A stretch of 64,000 nt of DNA from the human T2T-CHM13v2.0 reference genome, Homo sapiens, in the NCBI RefSeq assembly GCF_009914755.1, contig NC_060941.1. One strand, given 5' to 3'. Position 1 is the stretch's first letter; the number at the start of each line of letters is the position of its first letter. Shown one piece after another: positions 5,098-57,500 of the stretch. The notes under the pieces are model-generated. The model was not told the origin of the DNA and searched no databases. It saw nothing but the letters and a program-made list of their open reading frames with translations. A program made the translations under genes and the position numbers.

Positions 5098-5381
5098 AAA
5101 GTGGCAAGGTTAGCATTCAAGAATTTATGACTAAATTATCCGATATATTGACAATTCCTAAAGCTGCAGGTAAGTTTTATTTAATATGTACTTATTGCCC
5201 AGATCTAGAAAGGCAAGCAGTGGTTTACATGTTAAAAACAATACAGGATTCGATAGTTAAAGCACAGGTAAGTAAGAAGCAATACAATATGAATATAAAA
5301 CAACACAAGATTAGTTTACATAACTTCTGTTTGAATTCTAAGGCAAATATTGCTAAGCTTAACCCAAACTCAAAATTTTAG
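5098..5381 (+). CDS. EFCAB13: Terminal coding exon of EF-hand calcium-binding domain protein 13 (rest of gene is upstream, outside window)
   Basis: Acceptor TTTGCCTTACAG|AAAGTGG at 5097/5098 (phase 1); open frame ESGKVSIQEFMTKL...NPNSKF* ending TAG 5379-5381. GKVSIQEF fits the second half of an EF-hand loop. Gene name from recall of the protein C-terminus and the neighbouring MRPL45 pseudogene. Confidence 0.85.
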
Positions 5382-5569
5382 GTAGTCTTACTTGATAGTG
5401 CTAGAAAATTACTAGATTATATATTATTCAGTATGCATATTTGACTTCTGAAATTATTAGAAAATAATTTTTAAAACTTTTGACAAATCCAGTAGAATTT
5501 TTATCACTATCTGTTATGTTCTCATGTATCTTCAGCGACTCTCTTGATCACACTTTTTAAACATTCATG

Positions 5570-5850
5570 CTTTTTGAGGTATAATGTACATATGGCAAAA
5601 TTCACTCTTTTTAGGTATACAGTTCTTTGGATTCTTAAAAATAATGTAATGTAACCCTTACTATACACAACATATAGACTATATTATCCCCCAGAAGTCT
5701 CTTATGCCCTTTTGGTAATCCATTTCTTCCTCTACCCTGAGCCCCTGGCAACTACTGATTCATTCTTTGTCCCTCTAGTTTTGCCTTTTGTGGAATATCA
5801 TGTAAATGATTAAATATGAAGTGGTTTGAGTTTGGCAGTCATTGCATGCA
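5570..5850 (-). mobile_element. Old L1M 3'-end fragment within the EFCAB13 3' UTR region
   Basis: TTGAGGTATAATGTACAT...CCCTGGCAACTACTGAT...TTTTGCCTTTT is typical antisense L1M 3' end. Confidence 0.7.
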
Positions 5851-5951
5851 TATACCTTGAATTTACTTTGTTTATACTCTCATTTATACTACCAACCCTC
5901 CCTAGAAAAAATGGATTCTGATTGGTTCTGGTTGCAGTATTACAAATTCCA

Positions 5952-5957
5952 AATAAA
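5952..5957 (+). terminator. Candidate polyadenylation signal for EFCAB13
   Basis: AATAAA ~570 nt after the stop codon, followed by GT-rich sequence; cleavage site not determinable from sequence. Confidence 0.45.
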
Positions 5958-6021
5958 GCTTTATTTGAGGACCCCCAAAGTTGAGGTACTGATCCCTTTG
6001 GCTGTTTGTTTCCCACTAAGT

Positions 6022-6070
6022 TGTGTGTGTGTGTGTGTGTGTGTGTGTGTGTGTGTGTGTGTGTATGTGT
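6022..6070. repeat. (TG)n microsatellite
   Basis: Direct observation. Confidence 0.97.
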
Positions 6071-6390
6071 AACCAACATTTTGTTGAATCAACAATGTAC
6101 CATTAGTAAAGCTGCTGTGCAAAATTATCCCTCAGATCTGTTCTAAACTTACAGTTTAACTGATTTTATTGTCCTCACCTAAGGTTATACAATTCATTTT
6201 TTGGAAGAAAATACTAGGACATTAAATCAAGATGGTTACTTTTGCTATTTTGCTGAAGTTCATATTTAAATATAAATGAAGAAGTTAATCTACACATTAG
6301 AAGTGTTTTAAAAAATGTTTAAATTGATACATAATTGTACTTTCATTTATACATTGTATAATAATCAAATCAGTGTAAGTAGCAACCCAT

Positions 6391-53700: not shown

Positions 53701-54246
53701 TTACTCAATATACTTATGCACATAAACCTATACATGATTTACATATAGTGACAGCGGCTACTCTGGGCACACTGGCCTATGGGGTAGCCCTGCTCTGCAA
53801 TGAACAGTACAAATTTAAAAAAAAAGATAGATACAGTCAGAGCTAGACTGGCTGGGTGTGACGGGTCACACCTGTAATCCCAGAATTTTGGGAGGCTGAG
53901 GTGGGAGGACTGCTTGAGCCCAGGAGTTCGAGACCAGCCTGGGCAACATAGTGATACCCCGTCTCTACAAAAATTTCTTTTAAAAATTAGCCAGGTCGGC
54001 TGGGCGCAGTGGCTTACGCCTGTAATCCCAGCAATTCAGGAGGCCGAGGTGGGTGGATCACGAGGTCAAGAGACAGAGACCATCTTGGCCAACATGGTGA
54101 AACCCCGTCTTTACTAAAAATACAAAAATTAGCTGGGCATGGTGGCATGCGTCTGTAGTCCAGCTACTCGGGAGGCTGAGGCAGGAGAATCTCTTGAACC
54201 CGGGAGGCAGAGGTTGCGGTGAGTTAAGAGTGAAACTCCGTCTCAA

Positions 54247-54287
54247 AATAAATAAATAAATAAATAAATAAATAAATAAATAAATAA
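54247..54287. repeat. (TAAA)n Alu-tail microsatellite
   Basis: Direct observation; similar tracts at ~35803-35840 and ~26696-26722. Confidence 0.9.
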
Positions 54288-54862
54288 AGGGCTGGGCGTG
54301 GTGGCTCTCGCCTGTAATCCCAGCACCTTTGGGAGGCCAAGGCGGGCCTCCTGAGGTCAGGAGTTCAAGACCAGCCTGACCAACAGACCAACATGGAGAA
54401 ACCACATCTCTACTAAAAATACAAAATTAGCCAGGCATGGTGGCACATGCCTGTAATCCCAGCTACTCAGGAGGCTGAGGCAGGAGAATCATTTGAACCC
54501 AGGAGGCGGAGGTTGCGGTGAGCCAAGATCGTGCCATTGCATTCTAGTCTGGGCAACAAGAGCGAAACTCCATCTCAAAAAAAAAAAAAATTAAATATAT
54601 GATTAAAAAAGGATCCTATACACTCCAAAGTCAACTCCCTAACTGATATGACAAAAATTACCAATAAAGGCAGGGATGCTGAGAATCAGGAAGCCCACAT
54701 TATTCTGCATTAAATACAGACTCTAGTACAAAGGAGAAAATACCATCATGTTATTAAGAGAATGACACCCAACCCAATTAACCCAAAAAGGTCTCTTTGG
54801 GATAAAGTAGCAACAAAAAATTGTTATTCTAATACCAATACCCAATTGTCTCAGACACCTAC

Positions 54863-54990
54863 GACACTTGTGATGCCATAGTCTTCTTCATTCGTTCAGT
54901 TCTCTCTATCAGTTCTCTCTATCATCTCCTTTGAAAGAGATGATATGCGTGCATCACCCTCAGGAGGAACATAGGCATCAAATATACCAG
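54863..54990 (-). pseudogene. MRPL45P2: MRPL45-like exon 3 (128 nt; net +10 nt, stop TGA at 54898-54896)
   Basis: TTTATTACAG|CTGGTATATTTG...[36 protein letters not shown] then TGATAGAGAGAAC duplicated, giving MIERTDREN*; ancestral ERMKKTMASQV continues in another frame. Confidence 0.93.
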
Positions 54991-55709
54991 CTGTAATAAA
55001 GGAAGAAAAAAATTAAGAAAGTGTTGAAAGATTGAGAAAAACTCATAAAATTGAAGTAATGTAAAATTGGGAAGGATTGTGGATATGAAGTAGACTAATG
55101 AAACAGACTTCCATGTAGAGAGAACTATGTTACACTAGAAAAAAACAAAACAAGGCCGGGCACAGTGGCTCACACCTGTAATCCCAGCACTTTGGGAGGC
55201 CGAGGCGGGCGGATCACAAAGTCAGGAATTCAAGACCAGCCTGGCCAAGATGGTGAAACCCCATCTCTACTAAAAATACAAAAATTAGCCGGGCATGGTG
55301 GCAGGTGCCTGTAATCCCAGCTACTTGGAAGGCTGAGGTAGGAGAATCGCTTGAACCCAGGGGGGCAGAGGTTGCAGTGAGCCCAGATTGTGCCACTGGG
55401 CGACAGAACGAGACTCTGTCTCAAAAAACAAAACAAAACAAAAAAAGCCAGAAAGATTTAAGTCTTCTCTCAGAGCCTCAGTTTCTACTTCCACAAAATG
55501 GAGAAATTTCACTCTTGCCTTCTAGGGACAGTGTGAAAGTAAGTTCAAAGAACAACTTCATGATATATAGTGTATATAAGGTTAATCATTATTGAGGCTG
55601 AACTGACTTCGTGCTTAATTAAATATTATCAATCATAGTCCAAGTCATCCCAAGTTCCAGAAGATCTCTGACAGAAGGATCCCAGGTCAGGGTCCCAGAA
55701 ATACCTCAC

Positions 55710-55887
55710 CTGTACAGGCCAGATGTATGGAACGGTCCGATTTTTCTGGAGGAATAACCAATCCTGCTTTCCGGGCATGTTGCATAAACTCCTTTTCTGT
55801 TTTAAATTTAGGTTGATAAATAGGAGATGTGAAACGTTTTTTAGTTCTTACTGGAACTATAGCTGCGGACTGAGTCACCAGAACTGG
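55710..55887 (-). pseudogene. MRPL45P2: MRPL45-like exon 2 (178 nt, open)
   Basis: CCTTCCAG|CCAGTTCTG...[72 protein letters not shown]; phase 0 to 1. Confidence 0.94.
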
Positions 55888-57059
55888 CTGGAAGGTAAAG
55901 GAAAGGTTAGGAACCTAGAAAAAAGATCTACTATCTTTTACAAACTCTAAGCAAAGCACTATAGAGAGGGAATATCCAAAGAATGCTTCAGGAACAATTA
56001 TAAAACAATATCACAGGGAAAAAATGCATTAGGACCTTAATACTTATGGGTGTCTCTAAATAGAAGACAGTTAGCAACCTTTATTAACATCACATTTACT
56101 AAAGGCTTTCCTTTAGAACTTCCCACAGTACAGGACTATGCTAACACCTACGGATACTGAGTTGATCAAAGCAAGTTTCAAAAACTGATGGTGATGGGGA
56201 AACACCAACTCAATACTGAAATGGGCAGAATACTATTCTTTATTATTTTTTGAGGCAGATCGCTAGCCTGGAGTGCGGTGGCACGATCACGGTTCACTGC
56301 AGCCTTGACCTCCTTGGGCTCTAGCTATCCTCCCACCGCAGCCTCCCAAGTAGTTGGGACTAAGGAGTGCGCCATCGCATCCGGCTAATTTTAAAATTTT
56401 TTTGTAAAGACCAGGTCTTATATGTTGCCCAGGCTCATTTCGAACTCCTGGGCTCAAGCCATCCTTCTGCCTCGGACTTTCAAAGTGCTGGGATTACAAG
56501 TGTGAACCACCGCGCCTGGCCCTGAATGCTATGCTTAAAGCATAAGCAAAGTCCTCTTGTAGGCATCTGCTCCATATGTACTCGTGATATTTTGCTCATC
56601 CTATCGGGAGTCTCGCTGTAAACTTTATTCTGTCGTTTTAGCACCCAACTGACCAATAAACCCTCGAAAGACCAGGAGACCTTTTCTCTCTGATCATGAG
56701 GTTTGCTCAGACGGGGCGGTGACAATATGGGACGCCCTCATTTTCGGCTACTCTTCAACGTAGTTCACTTATAAGAATCGAAGATTAGGGAGTCCACCTT
56801 CCAACCCATTACTTGTCTCTCCTTTAATATCTCCTCGCCAGACAGACCCAAACCAATCCGGAAAAACTTAATACCCGTTAATTCACTCGCTCTCATGGCC
56901 CTGTCTAGGCTATCCCCATTCGACCACTGAGCTCCGCAGCTAGGTCCTGTCCACCTAAGCCTCTTCCCCGGCCTAGGTATGACTCGTATTGTCCCAGCTC
57001 ACCAAGGACAATTGCACAGAGAGTATTTCCCTCGACTCTGTCCTCCTCCTGTAGCCCCT

Positions 57060-57500
57060 AGGGTCCTATCGGCCCCGTCCCTACCCACCTGCCGAGACCA
57101 CCAGCCCAAAACCCTCGATAAACAAGAGAACCCTTGAGGTATGGGGGCTGCCATCTTGTTCCCGCAAAGGCCGCCGGGAAGGGAGCTGAGAGTGAAGAGC
57201 GTCGGGTAGGAGAAAAGCCGCATAGGGTGGAGCTAGCACAGGAGTGGAATTTTCCAGGGAGCGCGCCCTCCGCCGAAATGTGAGCCGCGAGGACGCGCAC
57301 GTGCTCGCGGGAGTGGGGGAGGGTGGAGTAAGGCGGGCGGAGTACGGCCGCGCGTGCGCAGGGAGACAATGTTGGGCGTAGGGTGGAACCAACTGTTGTC
57401 ACGCGCCAGCGAGAGAGCGCTTGAACGCGAGCTGCGCCTGCGCCCGAGGCTTTCTGAAGGCCGGGAATGGGCATTGCTGTATGCTTGGCACATTGCCGTT
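57060..57500 (-). promoter_or_regulatory. CpG-island promoter of the MRPL45 copy
   Basis: Dense CpGs; NRF1-like GCGCGTGCGCA (57350-57360) and TGCGCCTGCGC (57433-57443); E-box CACGTG (57298-57303); GC box GGGCGG (57335-57340); YY1-like AAGATGGC over the ATG. Confidence 0.85.
57089..57154 (-). pseudogene. MRPL45P2: MRPL45-like exon 1 coding part (66 nt)
   Basis: AAGATGG (good Kozak context), [22 protein letters not shown], donor CAG|GTGGGT. Confidence 0.94.

What the first reader, a model, noticed from the sequence alone, without database searches (positions are those of the whole stretch)
5098..57500. Whole window reads as an evolutionary breakpoint mosaic: two 3'-truncated genes converging across foreign DNA
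EFCAB13 (+) stops at a read-through donor, the MRPL45 copy (-) stops after exon 4, and the ~40 kb between holds an MLLT10 exon, a 3'-UTR-like fragment and abrupt repeat junctions. Repeat composition flips from L1/LTR-rich to Alu-saturated near 8.8 kb. I recall Mrpl45 lying next to Npepps in mouse and NPEPPS lying beyond the right end of this human locus, so the pseudogene may sit at the ancestral position. Convergent orientation also allows antisense read-through.
Basis: inference. Interest (0 to 1): 0.7.

Follow-up and report, generated by a model that had tools for sequence, protein, structure and literature searches.

The report
Known hominine chromosome 17 breakpoint junction
This stretch of human chromosome 17 is the scar of a rearrangement in the common ancestor of humans, chimpanzees and gorillas: two gene stumps are joined by about 30 kb of DNA copied from elsewhere, and the main facts are already published.

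Summary

The window has four blocks with sharp borders:
- 1-8838: single-copy DNA holding the last EFCAB13 exon.
- 8839 to about 28640: an MLLT10-derived duplicon, 2.2% diverged from a longer copy at 17q12 and 6.5% from chr10.
- About 28650-39399: a duplicon 6.9% diverged from 17p11.2.
- 39400-64000: the proximal end of the published ~119 kb NPEPPS/MRPL45 duplication, 1.6-2.5% diverged from the real MRPL45 locus and inverted relative to it.

The Alu-like fraction jumps from 6% to 33-51% at 8839.

MRPL45P2 keeps the promoter, exons 1-4 and introns of MRPL45. It has a 10-bp frameshift in exon 3. In the RefSeq model it then splices into an MLLT10-derived exon and an Alu-built last exon.

Published work shows that EFCAB13 is the 5' half of a giant gene (Efcab3-like) split in the Homininae ancestor. 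It also places NPEPPS beside an inversion-translocation breakpoint separating orangutans from African apes. Horse gene order puts MRPL45 next to NPEPPS.

So the pseudogene does mark the ancestral neighbourhood. New here is only the base-level anatomy of the three junctions. Interest is low to moderate.

The parts
146..3513 (-). L1 retrotransposon fragment in the last EFCAB13 intron
   Evidence: 84-88% identity to more than 30 dispersed loci. L1 ORF1 RBD-like domain E = 1e-25 and RVT_1 E = 3.3e-9 on the - strand.
5098..5979 (+). Last EFCAB13 exon. A 72-nt coding exon (5098-5169) is extended by read-through of two consensus donors (5169|5170 and 5267|5268) to a stop at 5379-5381. AATAAA lies at 5952-5957.
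   Evidence: Sequence and translation; hub annotation. Lilue et al. describe EFCAB13 as the 5' part of the split Efcab3-like gene.
5980..8838 (.). Single-copy stump of the former Efcab3-like intron, up to junction J1
   Evidence: A genome search with 4300-8838 found only itself as a long match, plus a ~345-bp interspersed repeat at about 7289-7632 and Alu-scale hits; 40 of 30,839 candidates were scored.
8838..8839 (.). Junction J1: unique DNA joined to the middle of an Alu of the donor duplicon. Not an Alu-Alu join.
   Evidence: Three-way comparison of the window, chr17:38.85 Mb and chr10.
8839..28650 (+). MLLT10-derived duplicon, a secondary copy. It is 2.2-2.3% diverged from chr17:38848637 to about 38868416 (same orientation) and 6.55% from chr10:21621965-21608107 (opposite orientation).
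   Evidence: The 17q12 copy carries chr10 homology further on both sides (38843263-38875891 matches chr10 21626395-21600480), so the window copy is the derived subset. The 4.35-kb insertion relative to chr10 (11322-15673) is shared with 17q12 only.
21341..21450 (-). MLLT10 (AF-10) exon copy, used as exon 5 of the RefSeq MRPL45P2 transcript
   Evidence: AF-10 residues 100-135, E = 4.8e-16, 31 of 36 identical. Splice sites seen. Hub annotation.
14883..15534 (-). Last exon of MRPL45P2, built from two Alu elements, with AATAAA at 14901-14896
   Evidence: Sequence; hub annotation.
22671..22967 (.). Young Alu insertion present only in the window copy
   Evidence: 98% identical to chr2:100482977-100483273. 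Absent from the 17q12 copy: alignments abut at 22670/22964.
28343..28541 (.). Tandem duplication specific to the window (92 bp x 2.2 copies, 99% matches), just left of J2
   Evidence: Single copy in 17q12 and chr10.
28630..28650 (.). Junction J2: hybrid Alu. The switch from 17q12-type to 17p11.2-type sequence falls within about 20 bp of shared Alu sequence.
   Evidence: Per-base comparison.
28651..39399 (-). 17p11.2-type duplicon, 6.9% substitution divergence from chr17:20747819-20731160. No younger partner was found in this genome.
   Evidence: About 5.4 kb of the 17p11.2 copy (20733040-20738403) has no counterpart here.
39399..39400 (.). Junction J3: the first ~20 bases of an Alu (17p11.2-type) joined to unique MRPL45 intron 4 sequence, with 1 bp of microhomology
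39400..64000 (-). Proximal 24.6 kb of the NPEPPS/MRPL45 segmental duplication, inverted relative to chr17:39177884-39152900. Substitution divergence is 1.63% over 20.4 kb and 2.52% over 4.4 kb.
   Evidence: The 17q12 partner of NPEPPS's 5' end matches chr17:48384493-48393195 at 96-98%. PMC12871316 gives 119,358 bp at 98.2%.
47693..57315 (-). MRPL45P2 exons 1-4 (57089-57315, 55710-55887, 54863-54990, 47693-47791) with promoter and introns kept. A 10-bp insertion at 54916-54925 in exon 3 shifts the frame to a TGA.
   Evidence: hub annotation (RefSeq enhancer marks at 57083-57759).

Best explanation
The window is the new junction made when the long arm of chromosome 17 was rearranged in the common ancestor of human, chimpanzee and gorilla.

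On the left is the 3' stump of the giant ancestral gene Efcab3-like. Cut off from its downstream exons, the transcript now reads through a splice donor and ends at an intronic poly(A) signal; this is human EFCAB13.

On the right is the NPEPPS end of the old NPEPPS-MRPL45 head-to-head gene pair. About 119 kb spanning both promoters exists twice, in opposite orientation, 9.2 Mb apart. The copy here is whole on the NPEPPS side and cut in MRPL45 intron 4. The copy at 17q12 is whole on the MRPL45 side and, per the preprint, cut in NPEPPS intron 11. A single ancestral copy had to serve both complete genes, so they were neighbours until the event that duplicated it (inference).

Between the two stumps lie 30.6 kb of filler made of two older duplicons. 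One is a fresh copy of an MLLT10 fragment that had long resided in the 17q12 duplication block. The other is related to 17p11.2. One of the three joins is Alu-to-Alu; two are non-homologous (at most 1 bp of microhomology shown at J3).

The still-active duplicated MRPL45 promoter now drives a non-coding chimeric RNA: MRPL45 exons 1-4, one MLLT10 exon and an Alu-built terminal exon.

Shown here: block borders, identities, junction sequences and exon origins. From the literature: timing and the state in other species. Inferred: that all the joins date from the same rearrangement.
For: Block map, with borders at 8838|8839, 28630-28650 and 39399|39400.

Young divergence of both 17q12-partnered blocks: 443 substitutions in 24,782 aligned bases (1.79%) for the MRPL45 block and 426 in 19,324 (2.20%) for the MLLT10 block. 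The primary duplicons are older: 6.55% to chr10, 6.48% for 17q12 against chr10, and 6.89% to 17p11.2.

The 17q12 MLLT10 copy extends further on both sides. The two copies of the MRPL45 block are inverted. The 17q12 copy continues into NPEPPS 5' homology. MRPL45's Tim44-coding exon lies outside the duplication.

The RefSeq transcript NR_033934.1 splices from 47693 to 21450, across J3 and J2, which argues against an assembly artefact (hub annotation).

Literature, passages only:
- Split of Efcab3-like in Homininae (10.1101/235838).
- The 119,358-bp duplication at 98.2%, present in African apes only and single in orangutan and macaque (PMC12871316).
- An inversion-translocation breakpoint beside ancestral NPEPPS (10.64898/2026.01.14.699191).
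- A paracentric 17q inversion in the human/chimpanzee/gorilla ancestor, with its proximal breakpoint in the duplication block just proximal to MRPL45 (PMC2374708).
- MRPL45 next to NPEPPS in horse, and within one 2.25-Mb interval in cattle.
Against: No non-human genome could be aligned here, so the broken synteny rests on the literature and on logic from the human sequence.

The two young blocks differ slightly in divergence (1.79% against 2.20%, about 3 standard errors by my arithmetic), so one single event is not shown.

The 17p11.2-type block has no ~2% partner. It may have sat at one of the sites long before, or its donor may be lost. Which of J1-J3 is 'the' breakpoint is therefore open.

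The MLLT10 pair is in direct orientation, which a simple staggered-break inversion does not predict.

Cardone et al. describe a single inversion between 17q12 and 17q23 and do not mention this site. Their DUPA' block (hg18 42.33-42.61 Mb) is not this window by my recalled coordinate offset.

My searches did not show contiguity of the duplication between the window end and chr17:48384493. One search listed only Alu-scale hits (38 of 102,158 candidates scored). One search likewise missed the MRPL45 paralogue that searches show.
Confidence: 0.8

Rival explanations
1. MRPL45P2 is an ordinary partial duplicate copied from the real MRPL45 at 17q12 into a duplication-prone gap. It is unrelated to any ancestral neighbourhood, and the mosaic is duplication clutter that merely lies near a breakpoint.
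For: At the MRPL45 edge the 17q12 copy is the intact one and the window copy is cut. The copies are only 1.6-2.5% apart. RefSeq names it a pseudogene. A second block (8839-28650) was indeed copied from 17q12 to here.
Against: The same duplication runs on without a break, per PMC12871316, into full-length NPEPPS. At that end the 17q12 copy is the truncated one. A one-way copy from 17q12 would require NPEPPS's own 5' half to be the copy. Horse order puts MRPL45 beside NPEPPS, and the cattle interval also holds both. The preprint finds the locus single-copy in orangutan and macaque, at the NPEPPS site.
Confidence: 0.08
2. The filler duplicons (8839-39399), or at least the 17p11.2-type block, were already inserted in the Efcab3-like intron or beside the 17q12 block long before the hominine rearrangement. 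On this view only one of the three joins is the true rearrangement breakpoint.
For: The 17p11.2-type block is 6.9% from its only partner, as old as the primary MLLT10 duplication at 6.5%. No ~2% partner was found. Cardone et al. date the 17q12 duplicons to before the human-macaque split.
Against: The MLLT10 block here is a ~2.2% copy of the 17q12 one, so at least J1 and J2 are no older than that copy. Lilue et al. report a full-length gene in orangutan and macaque, which speaks against a large old insertion but does not exclude an intronic one.
Confidence: 0.3
3. The mosaic is an assembly or haplotype peculiarity of this one genome.
For: None found. The region is rich in Alu and duplications, which are classic sources of misassembly.
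Against: A curated cDNA-based RefSeq transcript splices across J3 and J2 (hub annotation). The preprint reports NPEPPS at this locus with fixed orientation and copy number 1 in 462 of 462 haplotypes. The gene models here are long-standing named loci.
Confidence: 0.02

Closest known systems
The ~119 kb NPEPPS / NPEPPSP1 segmental duplication (PMC12871316 and 10.64898/2026.01.14.699191, 2026 preprints)
   Same: Window 39400-64000 is the proximal end of that duplication. Orientation, identity (I measure 98.4% by substitutions over 20.4 kb; they give 98.2%) and the paired MRPL45-type promoter all agree. 39400 plus 119,358 bp lands about 71 kb into NPEPPS, matching their ~70.2-kb 5' copies.
   Different: Those papers concern NPEPPSP1-TBC1D3 read-through at 17q12. 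In the passages I read they do not describe the MRPL45 edge, what it is joined to, or the MRPL45P2 transcript.
Split of Efcab3-like into EFCAB13 and EFCAB3 in Homininae (Lilue et al., bioRxiv 10.1101/235838)
   Same: The EFCAB13 3' end in this window is the 5' side of that break.
   Different: The passages I read give no junction sequence and do not say what now follows EFCAB13. Here the unique stump ends at 8838 against a truncated Alu of an MLLT10 duplicon.
Human/chimpanzee/gorilla paracentric 17q inversion with breakpoints in duplication blocks DUPA and DUPB (Cardone et al. 2008, PMC2374708)
   Same: Same lineage and timing, and the same theme of mosaic duplicons at breakpoints. The 17q12 donor of the MLLT10 block and the partner of the MRPL45 block lie in or at the edge of their DUPA interval (my coordinate conversion, recalled offsets).
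   Different: They map two breakpoints (17q12 and 17q23) by FISH. This site at 17q21.32 is a third one that their 12-probe order could not resolve (inference).
Inversions flanked by inverted duplications from staggered breaks (described for Drosophila inversions; recalled, no call)
   Same: Two inverted copies sit at the two ends of the MRPL45-to-EFCAB13 segment, each whole at the opposite end.
   Different: The joins here carry 30 kb of extra duplicons, and a second duplicated pair lies in direct orientation, so the simple model does not suffice.

Membership tests
Segmental duplication (at least 1 kb, at least 90% identity, non-repeat) | A long, high-identity paralogous alignment elsewhere in the same genome | tested here: met
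   8839-28449 is 97% identical to chr17:38.85 Mb. 39399-64000 is 97% identical (98.4% by substitutions) to chr17:39.15-39.18 Mb. 28500-39399 is 88-93% identical to chr17:20.73-20.75 Mb.
Evolutionary breakpoint region | Gene order broken relative to outgroup species | not testable with these tools
   No non-human genome is held. The literature supports it: Efcab3-like is intact in orangutan and macaque, the horse order is GPR179-MRPL45-NPEPPS-KPNB1, and a preprint reports an 'inversion-translocation breakpoint' beside NPEPPS.
Evolutionary breakpoint region | Mosaic of duplicons from different ancestral loci at the join | tested here: met
   chr10 (MLLT10), 17p11.2 and 17q12/MRPL45 blocks abut at base-level borders.
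Inversion with inverted duplications at both ends | Two copies in opposite orientation at the two ends of the rearranged segment | tested here: met
   The window copy matches chr17:39.15-39.18 Mb on the opposite strand. The copies bracket the segment from MRPL45 to EFCAB13.
Inversion with inverted duplications at both ends | Each copy contiguous with its ancestral flank at one end only | tested here: inconclusive
   The window copy is cut in MRPL45 intron 4, while the 17q12 copy continues there. Truncation of the 17q12 copy in NPEPPS intron 11 is taken from PMC12871316 and was not checked here.
Processed (retrotransposed) pseudogene | Intronless cDNA copy with a poly(A) tail and no promoter | tested here: not met
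   MRPL45P2 keeps the promoter, introns 1-3 and 8.3 kb of intron 4, all collinear with the parent. It is a duplicated, truncated gene copy.
Chimeric transcript from juxtaposed duplicons | Exons of one transcript derive from different ancestral loci | tested here: met
   Exons 1-4 come from MRPL45, exon 5 from MLLT10 and exon 6 from two Alus inside an insertion shared with 17q12. The exon model is from the hub's RefSeq table; expression was not tested.

The most novel reading that the evidence does not exclude
All three joins, and both young duplications linking 17q12 with 17q21.32 (the ~119 kb inverted pair and the 19.8 kb direct pair), were made in one complex event in the Homininae ancestor. 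On this reading it was a replication-based or multi-break chain that left the Efcab3-like intron, copied 19.8 kb from the 17q12 block, switched through an Alu into a 17p11.2-type duplicon, and re-entered at MRPL45 intron 4 with 1 bp of microhomology. The window would then hold the sequence-level record of how the hominine 17q karyotype arose. That one event would have truncated a 188-exon brain-size gene, set up the NPEPPSP1-TBC1D3 fusion locus, and created the MRPL45P2 chimeric RNA.
Probability: 0.25. Interest if true: 0.55.

Novelty: already known. Interest (0 to 1): 0.3.

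Why it matters
The rearrangement behind this junction reshaped about 24 Mb of 17q in the ancestor of African apes. It cut a giant gene whose loss enlarges brain regions in mice (Lilue et al.), and it created the duplicated NPEPPS promoter that the 2026 preprints link to TBC1D3 expression in human neural cells. Those points are published.

This analysis adds the exact borders and join types on the 17q21.32 side, the direction of one duplication (17q12 to here), and the three-source make-up of MRPL45P2. These are useful coordinates for anyone reconstructing the event with complete ape genomes, but they are not a new kind of biology.

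Tried and rejected
The extension of the duplication to NPEPPS therefore rests on one coordinate-only search and on the preprint.
- Whole-chunk genome searches are swamped by Alu. (48001-64000) and one search listed no long paralogue although one exists, so 'no other copy' statements are lower bounds.
- Looking for MRPL45 exon 5 by Pfam on 144 open frames of chr17:39170001-39180000 gave 0 Tim44 hits. That is uninformative for such short exons.
- A duplicate of the EFCAB13 stump near EFCAB3 or elsewhere was not found.
- The '3'-UTR-like fragment' could not be placed. I did not scan the 17p11.2-type block for gene fragments.
- 'Complete sequencing of ape genomes' (PMC12058530) holds 0 occurrences of NPEPPS and nothing on this site in the passages shown.
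- A processed-pseudogene origin for MRPL45P2 is rejected because the introns and promoter are kept.
- An assembly artefact is rejected because a curated transcript spans J2 and J3.

Full report
**What is there.** The window is T2T-CHM13 chr17:48298001-48362000. Its own genome could be searched. Searching it in four chunks, then running BLAST against 200 kb of fetched paralogous DNA, divides it into four blocks.

- Block A, 1-8838, is single-copy apart from interspersed repeats. An L1 lies on the - strand at 146-3513, and there are two Alu-like blocks. It holds the last EFCAB13 exon.
- Block B, 8839 to about 28650, is 97% identical to chr17:38848637-38868416 in the same orientation. It is about 92% identical, in pieces, to chr10:21621965-21608107 in the opposite orientation; that chr10 interval lies within MLLT10.
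- Block C, about 28651-39399, is 88-93% identical to chr17:20747819-20731160 (17p11.2), in the opposite orientation.
- Block D, 39400-64000, is 97.4% identical to chr17:39177884-39152900 in the opposite orientation. That is the MRPL45 locus and its upstream region.

The Alu-like fraction is 6.0%, 33%, 39% and 51% in A to D, and GC is 35%, 41%, 42% and 46%.

**The two gene stumps.**

*EFCAB13.* The last exon begins at 5098. After 72 coding bases comes a perfect donor (GCAG|GTAAGT, 5169|5170). The annotated exon ignores it and reads on through a second donor (5267|5268) to a stop at 5379-5381. It ends 22 bases after AATAAA at 5952-5957.

*MRPL45P2.* Exons 1-4 align to the parent with three substitutions in exon 1, one in exon 2, none in exon 4, and a 10-bp insertion plus one substitution in exon 3 (54916-54925). 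The insertion shifts the frame to a TGA. Exon 2 matches mL45 residues 23-81 of 306, 58 of 59 identical.

Homology to MRPL45 stops at 39400, which is 8.3 kb past exon 4. The one Tim44-domain match on chr17 lies at 39185029-39185160, outside the duplicated part, and none lies in the window (5 matches genome-wide). I did not locate exon 5 itself (0 of 144 frames).

*The rest of the transcript.* The RefSeq transcript goes on to an exon at 21341-21450 and ends at 14883-15534. The first is a copy of an MLLT10 exon (AF-10 residues 100-135, E = 4.8e-16, 31 of 36 identical). The second consists of two Alus with AATAAA at 14901-14896. It lies inside a 4.35-kb insertion relative to chr10 that exists only here and at 17q12. 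MRPL45P2 is thus a three-source chimera whose intron 4 spans two duplication junctions.

**The junctions.**

- J1 (8838|8839): unique DNA meets the middle of an Alu that is complete in both the 17q12 and chr10 copies.
- J2 (28630-28650): a hybrid Alu. 17q12-type sequence runs to about 28647 and 17p11.2-type sequence starts at about 28630. A window-only 92-bp tandem duplication lies just to its left (28343-28541, 99% matches).
- J3 (39399|39400): the first ~20 bases of an Alu of the 17p11.2-type block are joined to unique MRPL45 intron sequence, sharing one base.

So two joins are non-homologous and one is Alu-mediated.

**Ages and direction.** Counting substitutions only:

| Comparison | Substitutions / aligned bases | Divergence |
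|---|---|---|
| Block D vs MRPL45 locus, first alignment | 333 / 20,416 | 1.63% |
| Block D vs MRPL45 locus, second alignment | 110 / 4,366 | 2.52% |
| Block B vs 17q12 partner | 426 / 19,324 | 2.20% |
| Block B vs chr10 | - | 6.55% |
| 17q12 copy vs chr10 | - | 6.48% |
| Block C vs 17p11.2 | - | 6.89% |

The 17q12 MLLT10 copy carries chr10 homology well beyond both ends of block B (38843263-38875891 matches chr10 21626395-21600480). The order was therefore chr10 to 17q12 long ago, then 17q12 to this window recently. A young Alu (22671-22967) entered the window copy afterwards.

Against recalled primate divergences (about 1.2% for chimpanzee, 1.6-1.75% for gorilla, 3.1-3.4% for orangutan, about 6% for macaque), the young pair falls after the orangutan split. 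The old duplicons fall near the human-macaque split.

**Why the pseudogene marks the old neighbourhood.** The 17q12 partner of block D continues into a 96-98% match to chr17:48384493-48393195, the start of NPEPPS. PMC12871316 (passages) describes this as one 119,358-bp duplication of 98.2% identity holding both promoter pairs. It is duplicated in African apes and single in orangutan and macaque.

The copy here is whole toward NPEPPS and cut in MRPL45. The 17q12 copy is whole toward MRPL45 and, per that preprint, cut in NPEPPS intron 11. A single ancestral copy must have served both complete genes, so they were head-to-head neighbours until the event (inference). A horse gene list gives exactly that order, and a cattle interval contains the same set (one passage each).

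**Why the EFCAB13 end is a break.** Lilue et al. (10.1101/235838, passages) found that Efcab13 and Efcab3 are parts of one 188-exon gene lying between Itgb3 and Mettl2. It is full length in orangutan, macaque, bushbaby and squirrel monkey. In the Homininae ancestor it was broken by a ~15 Mb intrachromosomal rearrangement that also deleted internal repeats.

[quoted passage not shown] Cardone et al. (PMC2374708, passages) mapped by FISH a paracentric inversion of that age between the 17q12 duplication block just proximal to MRPL45 and 17q23. They do not treat this site.

Taken together, the window is the join between the distal end of the MRPL45-to-EFCAB13 segment and the NPEPPS end of the next segment. 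My reconstruction of two nested inversions or a three-break event is inference from recalled mouse gene order and these papers.

**What remains open.**
- Whether the three joins and both young duplications arose in one event is not shown. The divergences differ by about 3 standard errors.
- Where block C came from is unknown; no ~2% partner was found.
- The MLLT10 pair is in direct orientation, which a simple staggered-break inversion does not predict.
- Antisense overlap of the two converging transcripts was not tested. Their annotated ends are 8.9 kb apart.

**Novelty.** I found no paper giving the junction anatomy or the make-up of MRPL45P2.
- 12 papers hold 'MRPL45P2', none in title or abstract (listing only).
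- 'EFCAB13' + 'EFCAB3' + 'inversion' gave 0 papers.
- The four-term NPEPPS search gave 3 papers, of which 2 were listed.

The library lacks many subscription journals, and I opened no supplements. The core claims are nonetheless published: a hominine breakpoint here, EFCAB13 as a truncated gene, and the NPEPPS/MRPL45 duplication with 17q21 as the ancestral site. I rate the finding as already known, correct, and of low-to-moderate interest.

Noticed in passing
window 55000-56000 (also 46000-47000 and 49000-50000): Divergence from the MRPL45 locus drops to 0.3% in 55-56 kb (exon 2 and flanks), and to 0.8-0.9% in two other 1-kb bins, against 1.6% overall. One search gave 99% for 54500-57500. This could be gene conversion between the two copies, or constraint on the promoter-proximal region.
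   Followed up: partly
window 59000-60000: Divergence from the 17q12 copy rises to 4-6% and the two BLAST alignments overlap (59623-59920), next to an Alu-rich stretch. It looks like a locally rearranged or misaligned patch inside the duplication.
   Followed up: no
window 28343-28541: A 92-bp tandem duplication (2.2 copies, 99% matches) is present only in the window copy, about 100 bp from the Alu-Alu junction J2. It may be a by-product of the joining event or a later slip.
   Followed up: partly
chr17:20733040-20738403 (L026), relative to window 37524-37535: The 17p11.2 copy holds about 5.4 kb that the window copy lacks. This is either an insertion there or a deletion here.
   Followed up: no
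window 16158-16257: A perfect 33-bp x 3 tandem repeat of an Alu 5' segment (100% matches) lies inside the MLLT10-derived block.
   Followed up: no
G000:C2:88376817-88377246: The best Tim44-domain hit in the genome besides TIMM44 and MRPL45 lies on chr2, with stops inside the neighbouring match. It is probably a processed MRPL45 pseudogene, in contrast to the intron-bearing copy in this window.
   Followed up: no
hub annotation, window -111666..5979: RefSeq on CHM13 labels EFCAB13 a 'transcribed_pseudogene', although the last exon here keeps an open frame to a stop at 5379-5381. The reason must lie upstream of the window.
   Followed up: no
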